Part shown: positions 12,108 to 20,146 of the stretch, piece by piece
How the letters are laid out: each line of letters begins with the position of its first letter
Numbering within the stretch: position 1 is the first letter of the stretch
Assembly: GCA_029269845.2 (NCBI GenBank)
Contig: CP149973.1
Coordinates: 330,001 to 362,000, forward strand
Length of the DNA: 32,000 nt
Source: Opitutia bacterium KCR 482
Lineage (GTDB): Bacteria > Verrucomicrobiota > Verrucomicrobiia > Opitutales > Intestinicryptomonadaceae
Direction of reading: 5' to 3'
The notes under the pieces: model-generated
Databases searched by the model: none
Told to the model about the DNA's origin: nothing
What the model saw: only the letters and a program-made list of their open reading frames with translations
Translations under genes and position numbers: made by a program

Positions 12108-13265
12108 GTTTTGACTTTACAGCAAAGTGTTCTTTCTTAGATTTAATGTCGCCCGTTGGGTGTTATCTGTCGGGTTTTGACTTTACAGCAAAGTGTTCTT
12201 TCTTAGATTTCGCGGTCGTCTATCTGATAGCGCGGAGGCGTTTTGACTTTACAGCAAAGTGTTCTTTCTTAGATTATTTTCGCCACAGACACCAAAGGCG
12301 CGTTGGTTTTGACTTTACAGCAAAGTGTTCTTTCTTAGATTCCGCCGTCTGCTACATCGTAAAACGCTACGGTTTTGACTTTACAGCAAAGTGTTCTTTC
12401 TTAGATTGAAGTTCGCCGAATACGTCGTAAACGGCGCGTTTTGACTTTACAGCAAAGTGTTCTTTCTTAGATTAAAATATGAAATTATCAAAAAATGCGC
12501 TTGGTTTTGACTTTACAGCAAAGTGTTCTTTTTTAGATTAATCTGCATAACGAGGGTACGTTCAAACTTGTTTTGACTTTACAGCAAAGTGTTCTTTCTT
12601 AGATTGCATATTCAACAGAGCTTGCCCGAAGACTTGTTTTGACTTTACTGCAAAGTGTTCTTTCTTAGATTTTTTTCTAAAATGGGCTGTAAGCCGTCTC
12701 TGTTTTGACTTTACAGCAAAGTGTTCTTTCTTAGATTATGTCTATTCGACGTCCTCGTTTGGTATAAGTTTTGACTTTACAGCAAAGTGTTCTTTCTTAG
12801 ATTAGGACTGAAATGAAAATAAAGAGCACAAACGTTTTGACTTTACAGCAAAGTGTTCTTTCTTAGATTTGGATTGAGCGGGAAGCCAAGAAACTCGGTG
12901 TTTTGACTTTACAGCAAAGTGTTCTTTCTTAGATTTTGCGAATATGCAAGGGCTTTAATCGTTGAGTTTTGACTTTACAGCAAAGTGTTCTTTCTTAGAT
13001 TCATTGAAGCATATGTGCGATTGCTTGTCAAGTTTTGACTTTACAGCAAAGTGTTCTTTCTTAGATTCACGGTAGAAGTAAGCTATACCGCAGGATTGTT
13101 TTGACTTTACAGCAAAGTGTTCTTTCTTAGATTAACCTCGACGCAAAACTTCGGGTGAAAGCAGTTTTGACTTTACAGCAAAGTGTTCTTTCTTAGATTA
13201 TTATTGGCGACGTATTGTCCGTTCTCGAAGTTTTGACTTTACAGCAAAGTGTTCTTTCTTAGATT
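12108..13265 (+). CRISPR. CRISPR array with 18 repeats of 36 nt and 17 spacers of exactly 30 nt
   Basis: The repeat is GTTTTGACTTTACAGCAAAGTGTTCTTTCTTAGATT. I checked every unit by hand and found an exact 66-nt period from 12108 to 13230. There are two single-base repeat variants: repeat 7 (12504) has C29T at 12532, and repeat 9 (12636) has A14T at 12649. Both terminal repeats are perfect. Plus orientation is assigned from the GTTTT start typical of type II repeats and from the plus-strand anti-repeat. Confidence 0.97.
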
Positions 13266-13269
13266 ATAC

Positions 13270-13298
13270 TTGACATAATTTATGGCGTGCCAAATAAT
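13270..13298 (+). promoter_or_regulatory. Candidate sigma70-like promoter for the tracrRNA
   Basis: TTGACA (13270-13275), then a 17-nt spacer, then AATAAT (13293-13298). This predicts a start near 13305, just upstream of the anti-repeat. The call rests on the hexamer match only. Confidence 0.4.
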
Positions 13299-13304
13299 TA
13301 GTCC

Positions 13305-13382
13305 ATAATTTTGCTATAAAGTCTTAACTGATTATGCCGAATTTTAAGCTCTACATAGTACCTTAAAATTCGGCATTTTTTT
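13305..13382 (+). ncRNA. tracrRNA: Predicted tracrRNA (~78 nt)
   Basis: The anti-repeat at 13308-13328 (AATTTTGCTATAAAGTCTTAAC) pairs with repeat positions 1-21. That gives 17 Watson-Crick pairs and 1 G-U pair, with a 2-nt U.U internal loop at repeat positions 4-5 and a C.A mismatch at position 13. A perfect 15-bp hairpin follows: ATGCCGAATTTTAAG (13334-13348) / CTTAAAATTCGGCAT (13362-13376). The hairpin's final T (13376) begins a T7 tract that ends at 13382. The 5' end is inferred from the promoter guess. Confidence 0.7.
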
Positions 13383-13390
13383 ATTCACAC

Positions 13391-13813
13391 CTAAAACAGC
13401 AGAAAATTATTATCCGTCTTGTCCAATTCGTACTGTGGCGACGGTTTTGCGAAAAACTCTTCCGCCCCCTCCGAAAAAAATTCAATCTGCTCGGGGACTT
13501 TTTCAAGTCGCTTCGGTCGACGGCAAACCAGTTTGCTCGTCGCCCACTGCTTATCCGTAAAAAACAAAAGCCTTATGTCTCCCGTCGTAGGAGCGTAGGA
13601 TTTAACACGTTCATAATATTTTTTCATGCGCTCCATTGATACGCACGGACGCGAATACACGGAGTATTGAATCATGATAAATCCGTCGTCGAGCAAAGCG
13701 TTTCGGAATCGGGTCGCCTCTTTGCGCTCTTCGTCGAGCAACACGGGCAAGTCGAACATCGCCATCAGCCACCCCATTCTATACGGACTCCTTTTTTCGA
13801 TTTTGCATGCCAT
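13391..13813 (-). CDS. cas2: CRISPR-associated endoribonuclease Cas2
   Basis: 140 aa with the core WLMAMFDLPV...RKEATRFRNALLDDGFIMIQYSVYSRPC, as in type II Cas2. It starts 6 nt after the cas1 stop. An alternative start at ATG 13777 (MGWLMAMFDLP) is preceded by AAGGAG. Confidence 0.9.
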   Translation of the reverse strand: MACKIEKRSPYRMGWLMAMFDLPVLLDEERKEATRFRNALLDDGFIMIQYSVYSRPCVSMERMKKYYERVKSYAPTTGDIRLLFFTDKQWATSKLVCRRPKRLEKVPEQIEFFSEGAEEFFAKPSPQYELDKTDNNFLLF

Positions 13814-13819
13814 TGAAAT

Positions 13820-14710
13820 TTATAATTTCGGCGTCCACAATTCACCAGAATCTTTGCGCCGATATGCGTTTGCAAGTGTTTCGCAAAGATAGTCGGCGGC
13901 GTCGCACAATTTCATCGAAACCGAAGCTTTTTTTACGCGCCTGTCGCGCAAAAACTTGCCGAAATACACCGACCAAGCCGCAATCGAAGCCCCGCTTTCG
14001 GCAACGAGAAATTGGTAGAGCGCAAAATCCACAAACGCCCTAAACGGTTCAATCACGTCGTGGACAAGCGGCGTATTTTTGTAATACGTTTTGTGGTTTA
14101 CTCCGAGCAGAAAATTCAAGCCCGCTACGATAACCGCGCGGTGGATTATCGCCGACATAATTCCGTATCCGTAGTTTAGCAGAACGTTTATTTTAGAGTC
14201 GCCGTTTTTCGGATCGCGCCCTACTCCGTACTCTCCAAGTTGCGGAAAATAATGTTTCCAATATTCCCGCGCGCAAAGCGATTCGTTCAACAATGCGTTT
14301 TGCGATTGCGCCATTGAAAACAGCCGGCATTTTTTGATTCCGATTTGCCTGAGGCACTCGGCGTTGTTGCGGATTTTTGCGGCAAGCAGGCGACGCCAGA
14401 TTGCTCCGTTCAGATTCTTGTTTCCGGCGGACTGGTTTAAAACCACTTTTGCGTCGTATGTGCGGTTGTTCGGAACGGTGATGCCGACGGGCTTAAAATC
14501 CCTGCAATGAACTATCACGGCGTCGAATTCCGACAGCGCGGCAATGACGTCTCCGCTAATCGAAACCGCGCCGTTGAGAAGAATCACCGCGCGCAAATCC
14601 TCCAATGCTATTTTGCCCAATATTTTGCCGTCTTTTTTGCATACCAGCAGACCGCGCTCGCGCACGAGCCTGCACCCGTAATCCATGACGTGCAAAATAT
14701 GATAGCTCAT
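13820..14710 (-). CDS. cas1: CRISPR-associated integrase Cas1 (type II)
   Basis: 296 aa. It has the N-terminal beta-domain, then the Cas1 acidic/His residues in context (NESLCAREYW; GVNHKTYYKNTPLVHDVIEPFR). Its start ATG overlaps the cas9 stop as TAATG. Confidence 0.95.
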   Translation of the reverse strand: MSYHILHVMDYGCRLVRERGLLVCKKDGKILGKIALEDLRAVILLNGAVSISGDVIAALSEFDAVIVHCRDFKPVGITVPNNRTYDAKVVLNQSAGNKNLNGAIWRRLLAAKIRNNAECLRQIGIKKCRLFSMAQSQNALLNESLCAREYWKHYFPQLGEYGVGRDPKNGDSKINVLLNYGYGIMSAIIHRAVIVAGLNFLLGVNHKTYYKNTPLVHDVIEPFRAFVDFALYQFLVAESGASIAAWSVYFGKFLRDRRVKKASVSMKLCDAADYLCETLANAYRRKDSGELWTPKL

Positions 14711-17700
14711 TATATTATATCCAATTTTATGCGTTTCATTCCCGCGGGCATTAGGTACTGAATGGAAATGGGCTTAGACGAAATTCCGTCCGAATTTTCC
14801 AAATACCCATACCCATCCGCCCGAATCGAATTAGACTTGTAAATACCCGACTTTAAGAGCATTTTTCCCGATTTATCGACGACATCGTTCGGAATTTCGA
14901 CAAGGCAGTTCTGTCTAAAAAATCCGCAAACTTCGGCGCAATCGGGATTGTTTTTCAATGAGGCTAAAACTTTCGCCTTCGAGGCGTGCGCATAAACGGG
15001 CGCAACCATATACTTACCCTTTTGAGTTTTCCAGATGAACTGCCCTTTGTGTGAATCACCCTTGCGGTACGCGCCGCAGCCGTCCTTCGACAAATCCTTG
15101 TATTCTTCGGGACTGCCGACTTCGCACAGCACCCGCAGCAACTTTGTTGGCGCACCGTTTTTGGAGGGAATTGCTGCTTCATATTTGCACCAATCCTCCC
15201 ATTCGGATTCTTTTAAATCGGGATTAGACAATACAAAATCGGAAATTATGCGTTTTGAAACATCTCCAACGATACTTTCTATGCGTTTAACCAATTTCGT
15301 ATAATTGTATTTGGGATTTATTCCTTCGTATGCCAAATCGCGGACATTGCACTTTTTCACAATGCGTCCCTTGCGCAAAGAGTAAATCGTCTGTTCAAGT
15401 TTTGACTTTTCCACCGCAACCTTATTCGGAATTACTGTTGCCAGATACCTGCCGAAAAACTTGCGGGCTTCGTCGCTTTCAGGGTTGCGCGTGATTTCTT
15501 CGGGAAGAATATTTTTGTAGGCGGAGGCTTTCTTTGCGTTCGAAGTCGGCGCAAAGCAAAGACACATGGCGTCGAGCGCGTGGTGCTTTTTGTTTTTGCG
15601 GTTCTTTTCCTCGAATTTCTTTTCCATGCAAATTCGGTCGAACAAAGACAAATCCTCCGCAGACTCTTCGTCGTGGAGAAGCCTGTTCAAGCCGTAGCGC
15701 CCGCGAATCATGGCGGTGGTATTGCCCGAAACCGTCCAAACCTTTTTTGCGCCCGCAAGTCCGCCGAATTGGAAACCGAAATGCAGGCAGCAAATCCGCT
15801 GCGCAAGCTTTGAAATCCATGCGGTTTCGGCAAGAGCCGTGTATTTTTCCACAAGCTCCGCCGCGTTCGGTGAAAGCAAAAGTTTGCAACGTTTTGCGCC
15901 GAGTTCTTTTGTCAACTTGCGGACGCGCTCGCAATAGCTCTCCCACTCCGCACCCATTGTCGAACGCCATTCGAAGGGCGTTCGGTCGCCCTTCTCCTTG
16001 TTCGTTTTCTCGTCGGTCAATACGTAATTGTACATCGCGTCTGGGCCGCCGCGGCTGCGCGGAACAATGTGCTCAATCTCCAAACTTTCAAGCTCCGAAA
16101 GCGGCAGCGCATTTCCCGTGTAAACGCATTCTCCGCCCTGTTTTTTGTACAATTCGAATTTTAACAGCATTTTTTTCGAGGCGTATTTGAAACCGAACTC
16201 CTCCCGCTTTGAATCAAGATCTTCGGCAAGCTTTTTCTTCTCATCGAAGCGCGTTTTGATTGCCTTGTTCAGATCGCTTTTTGCCTTTTTGCCGAGAAAA
16301 TCGTCGCGCACAAATTCGAGCACGATTTTATCGGGAACGCCGAACTTTGCTTCGAGCGATTTTATGCGCTCGTAAAAGAACGAAAGCCTGTGGCGCACAA
16401 TGGGGTCGTTTTGGCTTCCGATAAGCTTGTTGATTTGCGCCTCGCGGGCGGCTGCGGAAGCATCGGCAAAGTCGGACAAACCGACATCCGGAATGAAAAT
16501 TCCGCTCCACGGCGCGTCCCCCATGAGTTTCAGAAAGTCCAAATCCCCAGCGACAAGCCCCTTGTTCTTGTCAGTGTTTGCAATATTTTCGATTGCCGTC
16601 GCGTAAAATTCCGCGGGCGACTTGCCCGAAAAAATCAGGTCGCGCAATATCCGCATTGCGGGGCGTGAAAACGCCGCCCTGCCTCCGTTCCTCGGCTGTT
16701 CGATTTCCGACTGGCTCTCGTCCATCACCTCCGCGCCGATTGTTTTGAAAAACTTTTTCAAAGCCGCCTTGCCCAATTTGAATTTCGAGTTTTTGGCAAG
16801 TTCGAAAGCCCGTAAAAATTCGTCGAACGAAAGAGAATCCACACCCGCGCCACGGAAAAAACGCAGATTTAACAATTTTAACGACAATGTAATTGTGTAT
16901 GACAGAAAGTCGTCGTCGGTTTTGCATTCGTCAAGCGGCTTGATTTTGCAAACGTTTAGCCGCGGAATCAGTTTGCATTTGTCGATTACGCGGTTGTCGA
17001 AGCGCGGCGTTTTCTGCCCCAGCGCGGTCCAGTCGGTCGCCGCGCCGCGTTTAAGCCCGAACCGCTTGCGAAGCTCTGGATTGTACGAAGCGTACGGCTC
17101 ACAAGCCCTGCCGAACATGATGAAATCCGCCTTGCCTTTCAGATTCGGATACTGCAACGCGGCGGCGTTTACGAGCGCGCGGAATTCGCGGACAACCGCC
17201 TCTCGCGGCACGACATATCCTTTTGCCTTTTCGGCGGTATTGTCGATTCTGACGCCGACAAAATCGGGATTTTCGGGCGACCACAAGCCCATTTTCGCCG
17301 CTTTGAAAAAGCACGGAAATTCGTATTTTTCGCGATTGTCAAGCTCCGCGAGAATACCGTCAAATTCGCGCTCATAGTGAGCAAGCTTTTCGGCATAAGA
17401 CTCGCCGTCTCCGCTTGCGTCGGAATCGGAAGATTTCCGCGAGATGCCGTCTCCGCCGTCCGCCGCGTCTTCGTCCCCCCACGGAATGTTTGCGTCATAG
17501 CCGCGGTTTTGAATCGCCGAATTCAGAGCTTTGAAGACCTGCCAACTTTCGAGTTTTTCGCCGAGCAGTAATTTACAGCGCAAAGCGATTGAATTATAAC
17601 AGAGATCTTCGCCCGCAGGCGGAAATTCGCGCTCCAAACGCACATCGCCTTTCGAGACAAGCTTCCACGCACCGTCAACAACGCCGACCTTTCTCCGCAA

Positions 17701-17931
17701 AAGAACCTCAATTCCCGCTTCGGAAAGACATTTTTCAAGCCACAATTCGCGCGCCTTATGGGCTTCGCGCGTGCGCCACGCGCGGCGGGCGGCTGCGGTG
17801 GTTTTTGTTTCGGCAAAGTCGGGCGCAATTTCGAGCGACTGCACATGTTTAAATTCGTTCCCCACTCTTACAGCCTCGCCAAGAGAACCCTTGCCAATAT
17901 CAAAACCCCAAATAATTTCTTTCGTGTACAT
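14710..17931 (-). CDS. cas9: Cas9 (type II-C-like, 1073 aa)
   Basis: RuvC-I is WGFDIGKGSLGEAV (Asp11). The Arg-rich bridge helix is AAARRAWRTREAHKAR. RuvC-II is KIVLEFVRD (Glu539). The HNH region is ECVYTG...LEIEHIVPRSRGG...NYVLTDEKTNKEKGDRTP (His621, Asn644). RuvC-III is KKHHALDAM (His784, Asp787). I checked the codons for Asp11, Glu539, His621, His783/784 and Asp787 directly in the nucleotide sequence. cas1 and cas2 follow it, with no csn2 or cas4. Confidence 0.95.
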   Translation of the reverse strand: MYTKEIIWGFDIGKGSLGEAVRVGNEFKHVQSLEIAPDFAETKTTAAARRAWRTREAHKARELWLEKCLSEAGIEVLLRRKVGVVDGAWKLVSKGDVRLEREFPPAGEDLCYNSIALRCKLLLGEKLESWQVFKALNSAIQNRGYDANIPWGDEDAADGGDGISRKSSDSDASGDGESYAEKLAHYEREFDGILAELDNREKYEFPCFFKAAKMGLWSPENPDFVGVRIDNTAEKAKGYVVPREAVVREFRALVNAAALQYPNLKGKADFIMFGRACEPYASYNPELRKRFGLKRGAATDWTALGQKTPRFDNRVIDKCKLIPRLNVCKIKPLDECKTDDDFLSYTITLSLKLLNLRFFRGAGVDSLSFDEFLRAFELAKNSKFKLGKAALKKFFKTIGAEVMDESQSEIEQPRNGGRAAFSRPAMRILRDLIFSGKSPAEFYATAIENIANTDKNKGLVAGDLDFLKLMGDAPWSGIFIPDVGLSDFADASAAAREAQINKLIGSQNDPIVRHRLSFFYERIKSLEAKFGVPDKIVLEFVRDDFLGKKAKSDLNKAIKTRFDEKKKLAEDLDSKREEFGFKYASKKMLLKFELYKKQGGECVYTGNALPLSELESLEIEHIVPRSRGGPDAMYNYVLTDEKTNKEKGDRTPFEWRSTMGAEWESYCERVRKLTKELGAKRCKLLLSPNAAELVEKYTALAETAWISKLAQRICCLHFGFQFGGLAGAKKVWTVSGNTTAMIRGRYGLNRLLHDEESAEDLSLFDRICMEKKFEEKNRKNKKHHALDAMCLCFAPTSNAKKASAYKNILPEEITRNPESDEARKFFGRYLATVIPNKVAVEKSKLEQTIYSLRKGRIVKKCNVRDLAYEGINPKYNYTKLVKRIESIVGDVSKRIISDFVLSNPDLKESEWEDWCKYEAAIPSKNGAPTKLLRVLCEVGSPEEYKDLSKDGCGAYRKGDSHKGQFIWKTQKGKYMVAPVYAHASKAKVLASLKNNPDCAEVCGFFRQNCLVEIPNDVVDKSGKMLLKSGIYKSNSIRADGYGYLENSDGISSKPISIQYLMPAGMKRIKLDII

Positions 17932-17997: not shown

Positions 17998-18584
17998 GCT
18001 TTTTTAACGCAAATAAAATCCGCGCGGCACCTCAGAAACCCGCAAAAAGCGAAAATTCCGGCGCGAATTTTACCCTATTCCTGCAGCGAAGCCTGCGCAT
18101 AATACATTGAAAAATACGATAGCCCCAGCAACAGACGGCCGGGATAAAAAGGAACGCAAAATATTAAGCGCATAATCATGCAACGGAAAAAAGACGATAT
18201 GAGCTCCGTCGTCTTTGCCCGCTCTTTCGAGTCGTTTTCGTTTGCGCTCGATTGATATTCAATCCTACGGAAGGATAATAATCAGCAAAATGACTATGAT
18301 TGCGCCGATGATTGTCAAGGCGTCATCGCAGCACTTCATGTCGGTATAGTCGTCTATGCCGATTTTTCCGTCATCAAAGTCGTCGTTTAGCTTGTTTTTG
18401 CGTTTCATTGTCTTGCGGGATTGCCCAGCAACCAAAGCCCTAAAAAACGCTTCGGCCGCGGAATGTGTGGCATTGTTTGGAAGGCGGCATTATCCGTTTT
18501 CTCGCGCAATAGTACAGATTTGACGGGGAAACGCAAGATTTTTCGATTTGGCGGGCGGTTTTAAGTGAGAAAAAGAGAAATGAC

Positions 18585-18626: not shown

Positions 18627-18699
18627 AGCGGGCGGTGGGGGTCGAACCCATAACCTCAAGCTTGGGAAGCTCGCGCTCTGCCAATTGAGCTACGCCCGC
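18627..18699 (-). tRNA. tRNA-Gly (anticodon CCC)
   Basis: The minus strand reads GCGGGCG-TA-GCTC-AATTGGCA-GAGC-G-CGAGC-TTCCCAA-GCTTG-AGGTT-ATGGG-TTCGACC-CCCAC-CGCCCGC plus a discriminator T. This folds by hand into a 72-nt cloverleaf with a 7-bp acceptor stem and a TTCGA T-loop. There is one A.C mismatch at the top of the T stem. CCA is not encoded. Confidence 0.9.
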
Positions 18700-18892: not shown

Positions 18893-20146
18893 CTACAATT
18901 TCATTTGCATTTGCACGCGGATTGACGAAGAGTCTGCGAAGCCGCCGCCCGAATATTGCAAATAATCGTAGCCGAGTTGGAATTTCAAATTATCGCCGCG
19001 CAGATACCAATTAAGTCCGACGTAGAATTCCTGCACGCTATTATACAGTTTGCCTATGTTTTTCGACTGCCGCTGTGCGTCGACTATCCGCAAGCCCCTG
19101 CCGTCGGTATTGCCCCACGAGTATCTGAATGTCGGCGCGATTTCCCCGAATTCGCCCGTGGCGAAGCGGTATTCGACCGAAAAGTTCAGTCCGTACGGAT
19201 TTGCCTGAGTATAGTTGCCGCCGACTTTTTTGCCGTCGGCTACCCCCGATGCAAGGAAGTCGCCCCACAGCCGCAATCCGCCGCACTCTGCGACGAAGTA
19301 CGGGTTGAGCGAGAGAATCGATGCAGAGCCTGTCGCGCCCATGTTGTAATTTGCGTCGCTCGAATAAGCGGTGTAAACGCCCGTTTTGAAGCTCCAATCG
19401 TCGCCCGAAGTCTTATAATGGACGCTTGCCCAATATGCGAAGTGGTTGTCGGTATACTGGTATGAAAGTTCGTCGAGTTCGGTCGGCGAGAGCTGGTAGG
19501 CGTTGGTGATTGCGAGCATATACGAGAGTCCGCCGCCGATGTCGCCGTTCCAGCGCACGCCCATGTAGCGGTTGCCGACGCCGAGCCTGCGGTTGTTCGC
19601 AGCTCCCGTCCAGTACATTGTTGCCGCGGAGCGTTCGATTGCGTTCAGCCCGAACGACGAAAACATGTCCTCGACCGAAAACCCCGGTTTCATGTAGCCG
19701 AGGAAAATGCGGCCGTCGAGCGCGTCGATTTTTTTCGAAACGTATGTGTCGGTCAGAATGCTGTTCATGCGCGAGCGCGCCATATCGACGGAAACGCGGG
19801 CGTCCCAGCCTCCGCCGAGGTCGGCGTCCGCCTGAATGAAGAACCTGCGCACGATGAAGCCCTGCGAGCATGCGTAGTCGCGGAATGGATTGTACGATTC
19901 GGCGTCAATCCACTCGTATTGAAGCTGGAAGCGCGCGCTCAATTTCAGCGATTTTGTCGATTCAACGGAGCGGACGACTTCCGCCGATTCCTTTGCAAGC
20001 ACGGACGCCTCCTGCGGCGTCAAAAGCCCTTTTGCGACGAACGCGTCGAGCATTGCCTTGTCGGAGGCATGCGAGACTGAGATGGAAAATGCGGCAAGAA
20101 GCGCGCATGCTGCGCATTTTACGAATCTGTGCGGTGCGGAAATCAT
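18893..20146 (-). CDS. Putative outer-membrane beta-barrel porin
   Basis: 417 aa with a signal peptide (CAACALLAAFSISVSHA). Alternating aromatic/Gly-rich beta-strand patterns run throughout (YEWIDAESYNP, GWDARVSVDM, LGVGNRYMGVRWNG, YVGLNWYLRGDNLKFQLGYDY). It resembles porin O/P-type proteins. The family assignment is tentative. Confidence 0.6.
   Translation of the reverse strand: MISAPHRFVKCAACALLAAFSISVSHASDKAMLDAFVAKGLLTPQEASVLAKESAEVVRSVESTKSLKLSARFQLQYEWIDAESYNPFRDYACSQGFIVRRFFIQADADLGGGWDARVSVDMARSRMNSILTDTYVSKKIDALDGRIFLGYMKPGFSVEDMFSSFGLNAIERSAATMYWTGAANNRRLGVGNRYMGVRWNGDIGGGLSYMLAITNAYQLSPTELDELSYQYTDNHFAYWASVHYKTSGDDWSFKTGVYTAYSSDANYNMGATGSASILSLNPYFVAECGGLRLWGDFLASGVADGKKVGGNYTQANPYGLNFSVEYRFATGEFGEIAPTFRYSWGNTDGRGLRIVDAQRQSKNIGKLYNSVQEFYVGLNWYLRGDNLKFQLGYDYLQYSGGGFADSSSIRVQMQMKL

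What the first reader, a model, noticed from the sequence alone, without database searches (positions are those of the whole stretch)
14710..17931. Compact, sequence-divergent Cas9 (1073 aa) with a full set of nuclease residues, an atypical RuvC-I motif and an acidic low-complexity insert
Seen in the sequence: a 3222-nt ORF, TAATG-coupled to cas1. The mapped residues are Asp11 (nt 17899-17901), Glu539 (16315-16317), His621 (16069-16071), Asn644, and His784/Asp787 (15571-15582). An Arg-rich bridge helix spans aa 46-61. On this basis it should be an active double-strand nuclease. Three features are unusual. First, RuvC-I reads FDIGKGSLGEAV, whereas well-known Cas9s read DIGTNSVGWAV (Lys-Gly replaces Thr-Asn/Ser, and Glu replaces Trp/Phe). 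Second, aa ~150-180 (PWGDEDAADGGDGISRKSSDSDASGDGESYAE) is an Asp/Gly/Ser-rich stretch inside the expected REC lobe. Third, the size is in the compact Nme/Cje range. Gene content (cas9-cas1-cas2, no csn2 or cas4) places it in II-C. I do not recognise it as any characterised ortholog. The PAM, temperature range and activity are unknown.
Basis: partly seen in the sequence, partly recalled or inferred. Interest (0 to 1): 0.8.

Follow-up and report, generated by a model that had tools for sequence, protein, structure and literature searches.

The report
Ordinary, already-annotated Cas9 from Opitutia
This is a real and apparently intact Cas9 gene with its guide-RNA genes, but the identical protein is already in GenBank as Cas9, and its "odd" features are normal for its large, biochemically untested Cas9 lineage.

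Summary
The 1073-aa ORF (14710-17931, minus strand) is real and is a Cas9. They are invariant in 57 relatives and align with the corresponding NmeCas9 residues. The gene sits in a complete locus: cas9-cas1-cas2, an antisense tracrRNA, and 18 repeats of 36 nt. One spacer matches phage-like contigs.

The three "unusual" features are not unusual. The FDxGKGSxGEAV RuvC-I motif is shared across the lineage, which is found mainly in Verrucomicrobiota and also in Elusimicrobia and other phyla. The acidic stretch is a disordered, hypervariable REC loop. The ~1050-aa size is typical of the lineage.

The exact protein is already in GenBank (WYJ07790.1, Opitutia bacterium KCR 482), annotated as Cas9. Lineage members were labelled II-C in the sequence list for a 2020 Cas9 tree.

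One twist concerns subtype. NCBI's curated model NF049971 names the family "Cas9d" (1171 bits, cut-off 375). Yet the locus has no cas4, a II/NMENI-type Cas1, promoter-like boxes in every repeat and a short tracrRNA, all II-C-like. It also lacks the published compact-Cas9d hallmarks.

I found no characterised member in the sources I could search. The PAM remains unknown. Interest is low.

The parts
14710..17931 (-). cas9, 1073 aa
   Evidence: ORF confirmed. NCBIfam NF049971 scores 1171 bits over the full length, and TIGR01865 scores 196.9 bits. Pfam finds HNH_4 and RuvC_III. The AF2 model has pLDDT 85.9 and best matches SaCas9 and Nme1Cas9.
17869..17904 (-). RuvC-I motif FDIGKGSLGEAV (aa 10-21), containing catalytic D11
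   Evidence: The motif is conserved across 97 relatives. D11, G13, S16 and G18 are invariant. D11 aligns with Nme D16.
17719..17805 (-). Arg-rich bridge helix (aa 43-71)
   Evidence: Predicted helix H43-71. H58 and R61 are invariant; R50, R53, T54 and R55 are at least 90% conserved.
17398..17478 (-). Acidic D/G/S-rich loop (aa 152-178) in the REC lobe, directly after the conserved WQVFKALNSAIQNRGYD..PW motif
   Evidence: pLDDT is below 50 for aa 155-176. The loop is hypervariable in length and composition among relatives.
16315..16317 (-). RuvC-II catalytic Glu539
   Evidence: Invariant. Aligns with Nme E504 in IHIETARE.
15973..16128 (-). HNH domain core (aa 602-653) with H621 and N644
   Evidence: Pfam HNH_4, E = 5e-13. 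H621 aligns with Nme H588 and N644 with Nme N611. There is no Cys4 zinc finger.
15568..15585 (-). RuvC-III HHALDA motif (aa 783-788) with H784 and D787
   Evidence: Invariant. Aligns with Nme H723 and D726.
13820..14710 (-). cas1, 296 aa, type II (NMENI) kind
   Evidence: TIGR03639 scores 122.6 bits against a cut-off of 120. PADLOC Cas1_II scores 153.9 bits.
13391..13813 (-). cas2, 140 aa
   Evidence: Pfam CRISPR_Cas2 and TIGR01573. PADLOC Cas2_II scores 148 bits.
13270..13298 (+). Promoter-like site for the tracrRNA (TTGACA-17-AATAAT, 11 of 12 matches)
13305..13382 (+). Predicted tracrRNA: anti-repeat (~13309-13329), hairpin (13336-13374) and a U7 tract. Ends are inferred.
   Evidence: This is the only anti-repeat in the window. 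The repeat:anti-repeat fusion folds at -37.7 kcal/mol, z = -8.35. The same element, with compensatory changes, lies in the cas2-array gap in 12 of 13 related loci examined; L079 has only a weaker, divergent match.
12108..13265 (+). CRISPR array: 18 repeats of 36 nt (GTTTTGACTTTACAGCAAAGTGTTCTTTCTTAGATT) and 17 spacers of 30 nt. It is read on the strand opposite the cas genes.
   Evidence: Every repeat except the variant at 12636 carries TTTACA-16-TAGATT ending at its last base.
12408..12437 (+). Spacer 5, with matching protospacers in phage-like contigs
   Evidence: 29/30 match in IMG/VR contig L081; 30/30 matches in metagenome contigs L082 and L083.

Best explanation
This is the effector gene of an intact chromosomal type II CRISPR-Cas system of Opitutia bacterium KCR 482 (Verrucomicrobiota).

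**Shown from sequence and comparison.** The gene encodes a Cas9 with a complete RuvC triad/tetrad (D11, E539, H784, D787) and HNH residues (H621, N644). It has an Arg-rich bridge helix and a compact bilobed Cas9 fold. It is translationally coupled to a type II Cas1 and Cas2. Next to it lie a unique anti-repeat/tracrRNA gene and an 18-repeat array.

**Inferred mechanism.** crRNAs are transcribed on the strand opposite the cas genes. They probably start from promoter-like boxes embedded in each repeat, as in Neisseria and Campylobacter II-C systems. Each crRNA pairs through the first ~21 nt of its repeat with a ~78-nt tracrRNA. The dual RNA loads Cas9, which recognises a still unknown 3' PAM. 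HNH then cuts the target strand and RuvC cuts the non-target strand.

**The flagged features.** The K-G/E RuvC-I motif is a lineage signature. The acidic stretch is a disordered surface loop in the REC lobe with no evidence of constraint.

**Family placement.** The protein belongs to a populous, deep-branching Cas9 lineage. That lineage has a II-C-type locus architecture, but NCBI's model NF049971 names it Cas9d.
For: - **Identity as Cas9:**
- **Catalytic residues:** invariant, and aligned to the NmeCas9 residues.
- **Fold:** pLDDT 85.9; best matches are SaCas9 and Nme1Cas9 at TM 0.55-0.6.
- **Adaptation genes:** type II kind.
- **Array and spacers:**
- **tracrRNA:** single anti-repeat, strong promoter match, stable duplex plus terminator. 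The element is conserved with co-varying anti-repeats in 12 of 13 related loci examined.
- **Repeat-embedded -10-like box:** found here, and the repeat ends in a TAnAAT-type hexamer in most of the 26 related arrays examined.
- **Locus architecture:** the same cas9-cas1-cas2-array order in every related locus whose contig extends far enough, among 80 fetched, with no fourth conserved gene.
- **Natural targeting:** spacer 5 matches three homologous phage-like contigs.
- **Organism and annotation:** the identical protein is annotated as Cas9 in GenBank.
Against: - No biochemical data exist for this protein or, as far as I could find, for any member of its lineage.
- The PAM is unknown. The only protospacer hits come from homologous contigs and are not independent.
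- The promoter and tracrRNA ends are consensus and fold predictions only.
- The subtype is ambiguous. NF049971 (Cas9d) scores 1171 bits, whereas the general Cas9 model covers only the core at 197 bits.
- The Cas1 score is barely above the II/NMENI cut-off (122.6 against 120).
Confidence: 0.85

Rival explanations
1. It is a true subtype II-D Cas9d in mechanism as well as in name. That would mean it behaves like MG34-1, MG102 or NsCas9d, with staggered cuts and dependence on a large structured guide RNA, rather than like a II-C enzyme.
For: - NF049971 'Cas9d' scores 1171 bits against a cut-off of 375, over the full length.
- Fragments of published Cas9c2 (MG33) and Cas9d (MG34) hit the same model at 210-280 bits per ~400 aa. 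NmeCas9 scores only 155 bits and fails the cut-off.
- The N-terminal half aligns further with MG33-1 (330 columns, E = 2.3e-5) than with NmeCas9 (119 columns, E = 2e-3).
- The PRFDNR motif is shared with MG33 and MG102.
Against: - There is no cas4, here or in any of 80 related loci, whereas the 2025 classification describes II-D with cas1-cas2-cas4.
- There is no RRxRR motif and no HNH zinc finger, and the protein is 1073 aa.
- The predicted sgRNA is only ~105 nt, with a single hairpin.
- A profile of this lineage does not detect the MG34 C-terminal fragment at all, and scores the 736-aa NbaCas9 chain (9k32_A) at only 55.8 bits against 120 bits for NmeCas9.
- The C-terminal half aligns with NmeCas9 over 406 columns into the PI domain, but with MG33-11 over only 183 columns.
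- The repeats carry II-C-style -10 boxes.
Confidence: 0.1
2. The gene is an inactive or repurposed Cas9, for example one used for regulation or left as a decaying remnant, rather than an active double-strand nuclease.
For: No experimental activity data exist. Only one of the eight spacers searched in IMG/VR has a detectable target.
Against: - All catalytic residues are invariant.
- The ORF is full length, and the cas1 and cas2 ORFs are full length and match their family models.
- The 18 repeats are nearly identical, with only 2 single-base variants.
- A 90%-identity cluster of 168 sequences is almost entirely full length at 1069-1073 aa.
- One spacer has a perfect protospacer in phage-like contigs.
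Confidence: 0.04
3. The acidic low-complexity insert is a functional module, for example a DNA-mimicking autoinhibitory or partner-binding segment, that sets this ortholog apart.
For: The stretch is 78% D/E/G/S over 27 residues. It is ~15-20 residues longer than in relatives below 62% identity.
Against: - Relatives at 74-86% identity replace the acidic residues with Lys/Ser-rich sequence of different length.
- The region is predicted to be disordered (pLDDT 36-54).
- It sits at a position that is a variable linker in the whole lineage.
Confidence: 0.03

Closest known systems
Type II-C Cas9 systems, e.g. Neisseria meningitidis Nme1Cas9 (PDB 6JDQ, 8JA0)
   Same: - Similar size (1073 against 1082 aa).
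- cas9-cas1-cas2 with no csn2 or cas4.
- II/NMENI-type Cas1.
- 36-nt repeats with 30-nt spacers.
- Repeats end in a -10-like box, and the array is read on the strand opposite the cas genes.
- All catalytic residues align.
- The C-terminal half aligns over 406 columns, including the YxVPIY-type PI motif.
- Lineage members were labelled subtype C in the 2020 catalogue's tree list.
   Different: - Only 26% identity over 307 aa, and 14-15% over the Foldseek structural alignment.
- The N-terminal half is barely alignable.
- The general Cas9 model TIGR01865 covers only the core (197 bits against 798 bits for Nme).
- The RuvC-I motif reads GKGSxGEAV rather than GIASVGWAM.
- The tracrRNA lies between cas2 and the array.
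Cas9c2 / MG33 family (ARMAN-type; former variant II-C2, moved to II-D in the 2025 classification; PMC9755519, PMC12669027)
   Same: - Same NCBIfam family NF049971.
- Similar length (900-1050 aa).
- The N-terminal half is collinear over 330 columns.
- The HNH region is 31% identical (E = 9e-23), with shared SRGGPD and NKEKGDRTPWEW-like motifs.
- Shared (P/A)RF(D/E)NR...C motif.
   Different: - Pairwise similarity is no greater than to NmeCas9.
- The WED/PI region does not align.
- MG33 proteins are Arg/Lys-rich with Zn-ribbon motifs and a 128-154-nt sgRNA. This protein has none of these.
Compact Cas9d (MG34-1, MG102-2, NsCas9d; type II-D)
   Same: Same NCBIfam name, Cas9d. An MG34 C-terminal fragment scores 247 bits on NF049971. 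Same RuvC/HNH chemistry.
   Different: - Those enzymes are 750-950 aa, often lack cas1/cas2, and carry an RRXRR domain, Zn ribbons and a long structured sgRNA. Several make staggered cuts.
- A profile of the present lineage does not detect the MG34 C-terminus.

Membership tests
Cas9 (type II effector) | Split RuvC domain (motifs I, II, III) with an inserted HNH domain and all catalytic residues | tested here: met
   Pfam HNH_4 and RuvC_III. TIGR01865 scores 196.9 bits against a cut-off of 100. D11, E539, H621, N644, H784 and D787 are invariant and align with the Nme residues.
Cas9 (type II effector) | Arg-rich bridge helix and a bilobed REC/NUC fold | tested here: met
   Predicted helix at aa 43-71 with conserved Arg residues. 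Foldseek best hits are SaCas9 and Nme1Cas9, E ~1e-25, TM 0.55-0.6.
Cas9 (type II effector) | Adjacent CRISPR array plus a tracrRNA with an anti-repeat | tested here: met
   Array at 12108-13265. Unique anti-repeat at 13310-13323. Duplex and terminator fold. Conserved in 12 of 13 related loci examined.
Cas9 (type II effector) | RNA-guided, PAM-dependent double-strand DNA cleavage | not testable with these tools
   This needs biochemistry. The only indirect support is a spacer matching phage-like contigs.
Subtype II-C | Locus of cas9, cas1 and cas2 only (no csn2, no cas4) | tested here: met
   ORF and family scans of the window. No conserved fourth gene in 80 related loci.
Subtype II-C | Cas1 of the type II (NMENI) kind | tested here: met
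   TIGR03639 scores 122.6 bits against a cut-off of 120, so the margin is thin. PADLOC Cas1_II scores 153.9 bits.
Subtype II-C | Cas9 falls in the II-C branch of the Cas9 tree | tested here: inconclusive
   Lineage members are labelled 'C' in the sequence list for the 2020 tree. The lineage profile scores II-C structures best. But NCBIfam assigns Cas9d, and the N-terminus is nearer to MG33. No labelled maximum-likelihood tree could be built here.
Subtype II-C | Promoters embedded in the repeats (as in the Nme and Cje systems) | tested here: inconclusive
   TTTACA-16-TAGATT is present in every repeat except the variant at 12636. Most of the 26 related arrays examined have a repeat ending in a TAnAAT-type hexamer. 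These are consensus matches only; transcription starts were not measured.
Subtype II-D / Cas9d | Match to the curated NCBIfam model NF049971 above its cut-off | tested here: met
   1171.1 bits against a cut-off of 375, covering model positions 2-985 of 986. NmeCas9 fails at 155 bits.
Subtype II-D / Cas9d | Adaptation module containing cas4 (2025 classification, PMC12669027) | tested here: not met
   No cas4 in the window or in the related loci.
Subtype II-D / Cas9d | Published Cas9d hallmarks: compact size, RRXRR domain, Zn-ribbon motifs including an HNH zinc finger | tested here: not met
   1073 aa. No RRxRR motif, no PF14239 hit, and no Cx2-4C pairs in the HNH domain.
Subtype II-D / Cas9d | Cas9 and Cas1 fall in the monophyletic II-D branches | not tested
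   The reference II-D Cas9 and Cas1 sets (the Zenodo data of PMC12669027) were not available. Only truncated MG33, MG34 and MG102 sequences could be obtained.

The most novel reading that the evidence does not exclude
The Verrucomicrobiota-centred lineage to which this protein belongs may be a biochemically unexplored Cas9 branch lying between classical II-C and the II-D (Cas9d/Cas9c2) enzymes. It combines a Cas9d-family effector, by NCBI's model, with a II-C-type adaptation module, repeat-embedded promoters and an unusually short (~78-nt) single-hairpin tracrRNA. If so, it could inform how II-C and II-D are related. It could also yield a ~1070-aa editor with a ~100-nt sgRNA and a new PAM.
Probability: 0.3. 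Interest if true: 0.4.

Novelty: already known. Interest (0 to 1): 0.2.

Why it matters
It matters little as a discovery. The gene, its Cas9 annotation and its family model are already public, and the features flagged as unusual are normal for the family.

The residual value is practical and taxonomic:
- No member of this well-populated lineage appears to have been characterised. A PAM screen using the sgRNA predicted here would open a new compact Cas9 branch.
- The lineage is a clear case where the effector-based label (Cas9d) and the locus-based label (II-C) disagree.

Tried and rejected
**PAM inference.**
- A megablast of the whole array against INPHARED phages found nothing.
- Eight exact 24-nt spacer scans of IMG/VR gave one hit, for spacer 5.
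- One metagenome scan gave two further copies of the same phage locus.
- The three 3' flanks (AATCAAGG, AATAAAGG, GATAAAGG) are homologous rather than independent, so no PAM can be claimed.
- A partial 21/30 match of spacer 1 in the same phage was judged unreliable.

**Searches for characterised members.** None of these found a relevant paper:
- Full-text search for lineage peptide motifs found no relevant paper.
- 'Cas9 ortholog' + Verrucomicrobi + PAM returned two papers, neither about a Cas9 from this lineage.
- 'KCR 482'.

**ARMAN/MG33 hypothesis.** I considered that the lineage is simply the ARMAN/MG33 (II-C2) clade, because one related locus (L045) comes from a 'Micrarchaeaceae' MAG. I rejected this. 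MG33 fragments are only as close as NmeCas9, and the L045 protein is 53% identical to an Endomicrobium-type bacterial protein.

**Other checks.**
- Rfam has no family matching the tracrRNA or the repeats.
- The supplements of the 2025 classification held as text name no bacterial II-D members.
- A proper labelled phylogeny was not possible, because the reference sequences in the paper supplements are truncated at about 400 aa.

Full report
**1. Observation**

The ORF at 14710..17931 on the minus strand is real. It encodes 1073 aa and starts with ATG. Its stop codon overlaps the cas1 start as TAATG.

Pfam finds HNH_4 (aa 602-653) and RuvC_III (aa 700-805).
- D11 at 17899-17901
- E539 at 16315-16317
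- H621 at 16069-16071
- N644 at 16000-16002
- H784 at 15580-15582
- D787 at 15571-15573

In a 57-sequence alignment of relatives (A1), all six residues are invariant. I recalled the NmeCas9 sequence from memory and then verified it as identical to PDB chains 6KC8/8JA0. In an alignment with it, the six residues pair with D16, E504, H588, N611, H723 and D726.

The Arg-rich segment at aa 46-61 lies in a predicted long helix spanning aa 43-71.

**2. Surroundings**

Downstream on the same strand are two adaptation genes:
- cas1 (13820-14710) scores 122.6 bits on TIGR03639, the II/NMENI model, against a cut-off of 120. It scores 153.9 bits on PADLOC Cas1_II.
- cas2 (13391-13813) scores 148 bits on PADLOC Cas2_II.

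There is no csn2 or cas4. The flanking genes are ordinary chromosomal genes. On one side are ExbB/ExbD, transferases and a formyltransferase. On the other are tRNA-Gly(CCC), a porin, an oxidoreductase, OGG and Tex.

The CRISPR array (12108-13265) has 18 repeats of 36 nt and 17 spacers of 30 nt. Only two repeats carry a single-base variant.

The single anti-repeat in the window lies on the plus strand at 13310-13323, between the array and cas2. A TTGACA-17-AATAAT promoter match (11 of 12) precedes it. A hairpin and a U7 tract follow it. A repeat-GAAA-tracrRNA fusion folds at -37.7 kcal/mol, with z = -8.35.

So the guide RNAs are read on the strand opposite the cas genes. The repeat begins GUUUUGAC.

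Every repeat except the variant at 12636 also carries TTTACA-16-TAGATT, ending at its last base.

**3. The lineage**

A database search returned 129 relatives, from 97% down to about 29% identity.

A scan of species-representative genomes gave 80 loci, each encoding a relative of the protein at 30% identity or more. Most come from Verrucomicrobiota, including Opitutales gut MAGs. Others come from Elusimicrobia/Endomicrobium, Lentisphaeria, Kiritimatiellia, Nitrospirales and Gastranaerophilales.

Every locus whose contig extends far enough has the order cas9-cas1-cas2, followed by an array where the contig continues. No other gene is conserved in the neighbourhood.

Twenty-six arrays in related loci were examined. 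All have 36-nt repeats, nearly all beginning GTTTTGAC or GTTCTGAC in crRNA sense. Most end in a TAnAAT-type -10-like hexamer such as TATAAT, TAGAAT or TACAAT.

In 12 of 13 loci examined, the cas2-array gap holds an anti-repeat that co-varies with the local repeat. It keeps a conserved GUCUUAAC end, which gives a U.U/U.U internal loop. A terminator hairpin with a conserved loop follows it. The thirteenth locus, L079, has only a weaker, divergent match. The effector therefore has a conserved, short dual-RNA partner.

**4. The three "unusual" features**

- **RuvC-I motif.** FDxGKGSxGEAV(R) is present in essentially all 97 full-length relatives. It is a lineage signature, not an oddity of this protein. 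Other deep Cas9 lineages also vary at these positions, for example DLGERAVGIAV in MG33 and DYGGKYTGLAV in MG34.
- **Acidic stretch.** It directly follows the strongly conserved WQVFKALNSAIQNRGYD..PW motif. That position is a variable linker in the whole lineage. The long version exists only in relatives at 74% identity or more, and even there the composition drifts to Lys/Ser-rich. The AlphaFold model (pLDDT 85.9, pTM 0.73) has pLDDT below 50 for aa 155-176. It is best read as a disordered surface loop.
- **Size.** About 1040-1100 aa is the lineage norm.

**5. Is it new?**

No. The exact sequence is in NCBI as WYJ07790.1 and MDF3286256.1. It is annotated [quoted passage not shown] and lies on a 2.30-Mb contig. 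Its 90%-identity cluster has 168 members. The organism is in Verrucomicrobiota, class Opitutia.

Gasiunas et al. 2020 (PMC7606464) list the sequences used to build their Cas9 tree. That list contains seven sequences with the lineage motif PRFDNRI, and the two I displayed are labelled subtype C:
- WP_082083265 is 40% identical to this protein over its N-terminal 400 aa.
- WP_052571014 is 72% identical to an Endomicrobium locus.

The motif is absent from that paper's table of the 79 characterised enzymes. My literature searches found no characterised member.

The nearest solved structure is Nme1Cas9, at 26% identity over 307 aa. The best Foldseek hits are SaCas9 and Nme1Cas9, at 14-15% identity and TM 0.55-0.6.

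**6. Subtype: the one real twist**

NCBIfam model NF049971, named "type II CRISPR RNA-guided endonuclease Cas9d", matches the whole protein at 1171 bits against a cut-off of 375. The general Cas9 model TIGR01865 covers only the core, at 197 bits.

The model is discriminating. NmeCas9 scores 155 bits on NF049971 and 798 bits on TIGR01865.

I took truncated fragments of published Cas9c2 (MG33) and Cas9d (MG34) from the supplement of PMC9755519. They also hit NF049971, at 210-280 bits per ~400 aa. NCBI therefore groups this lineage with the enzymes that the 2025 classification calls II-D.

Direct comparisons, however, are equivocal.

| Comparison with a profile of this lineage | Result |
|---|---|
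| NmeCas9 core, hmmsearch | 113-120 bits |
| MG33-11 C-terminal fragment, hmmsearch | 101 bits |
| MG34 C-terminal fragment, hmmsearch | not detected |
| 736-aa NbaCas9 chain (9k32_A), hmmsearch | 55.8 bits |
| MG33-1 N-terminal half, hhalign | 330 columns, E = 2.3e-5 |
| NmeCas9 N-terminal half, hhalign | 119 columns, E = 2e-3 |
| NmeCas9 C-terminal half, hhalign | 406 columns, into the PI domain, E = 6.7e-28 |
| MG33-11 C-terminal fragment, hhalign | 183 columns, E = 9e-23 |

The published Cas9d hallmarks are absent: no RRxRR motif, no HNH zinc finger, no cas4 and no long sgRNA.

By locus architecture, Cas1 type, repeat design and tracrRNA size, the system works like II-C. By NCBI's effector model, it is named Cas9d. 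I could not build the labelled phylogeny that would settle this.

**7. Mechanism**

Shown:
- A complete nuclease apparatus.
- Adaptation genes.
- An array and a tracrRNA gene.

Supporting evidence: one spacer (S5, 12408-12437) matches an IMG/VR viral contig at 29/30 and two homologous metagenome contigs at 30/30.

Inferred:
- crRNAs start from promoters embedded in the repeats.
- Each crRNA pairs through about 21 nt with a ~78-nt tracrRNA.
- Cas9 recognises a 3' PAM, and HNH and RuvC cut the two strands.

The PAM is not determined. The three protospacer flanks (AATCAAGG, AATAAAGG, GATAAAGG) come from homologous contigs and count as one observation.

**8. Verdict**

The novelty claim fails at the level of sequence and family. 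It holds only in the sense that nobody appears to have characterised this lineage biochemically. Interest is low (0.2).

Noticed in passing
window 12108-13265 (each repeat); related loci L001-L080: Every repeat except the variant at 12636 carries a sigma-70-like TTTACA-16-TAGATT site ending at its last base. Most of the 26 related arrays examined have a 36-nt repeat ending in a TAnAAT-type hexamer. This suggests II-C-style repeat-embedded crRNA promoters across the whole lineage.
   Followed up: partly
window 12408-12437; L081 5085-5114 (-), L082 5511-5540 (+), L083 1814-1843 (-): Spacer 5 matches an IMG/VR viral contig (29/30) and two homologous metagenome contigs (30/30). In crRNA orientation the 3' flanks are AATCAAGG, AATAAAGG and GATAAAGG. 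This is one independent protospacer, so it is only a lead for the PAM.
   Followed up: partly
window 13305-13382 (+); cas2-array gaps of 13 related loci: A short (~78-nt) single-hairpin tracrRNA is conserved across phyla. Its anti-repeat always ends GUCUUAAC opposite the repeat start GUUUUGAC, which gives a conserved U.U/U.U internal loop. No Rfam family matches it.
   Followed up: partly
L045 (contig JAVYRW010000041.1, 'Candidatus Micrarchaeaceae archaeon' MAG): A 6-kb contig binned to a DPANN archaeon carries cas9-cas1-cas2 of this bacterial lineage. Its Cas9 N-terminus is 53% identical to an Endomicrobium-type RefSeq protein and is not ARMAN/MG33-like. This could be mis-binning or horizontal transfer.
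   Followed up: partly
window 18627-18699 (-): tRNA-Gly(CCC) lies ~700 nt upstream of cas9, between cas9 and a phosphate-selective-porin-like gene (18893-20146).
   Followed up: no
window ~18264-18407 (-): A small ORF of ~47 aa (MKRKNKLNDDFDDGKIGIDDYTDMKCCDDALTIIGAIIVILLIIILP) with a hydrophobic C-terminal tail lies between the tRNA and cas9. It was read by eye from the sequence and not analysed.
   Followed up: no
window 12504-12539 and 12636-12671: Two internal repeats each carry a single-base variant (C to T at 12532; A to T at 12649). The terminal repeats are perfect, so there is no degenerate end repeat to mark the old end of the array.
   Followed up: no
NCBIfam NF049971 versus published Cas9d: The curated 'Cas9d' model scores this ~1050-aa, cas4-less bacterial lineage at about 1.1 bits per residue. 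Published MG33 and MG34 fragments score 0.5-0.7 bits per residue, and an MG102 N-terminus scores only 37 bits. The model therefore seems centred on this lineage rather than on the compact enzymes that gave Cas9d its name.
   Followed up: partly
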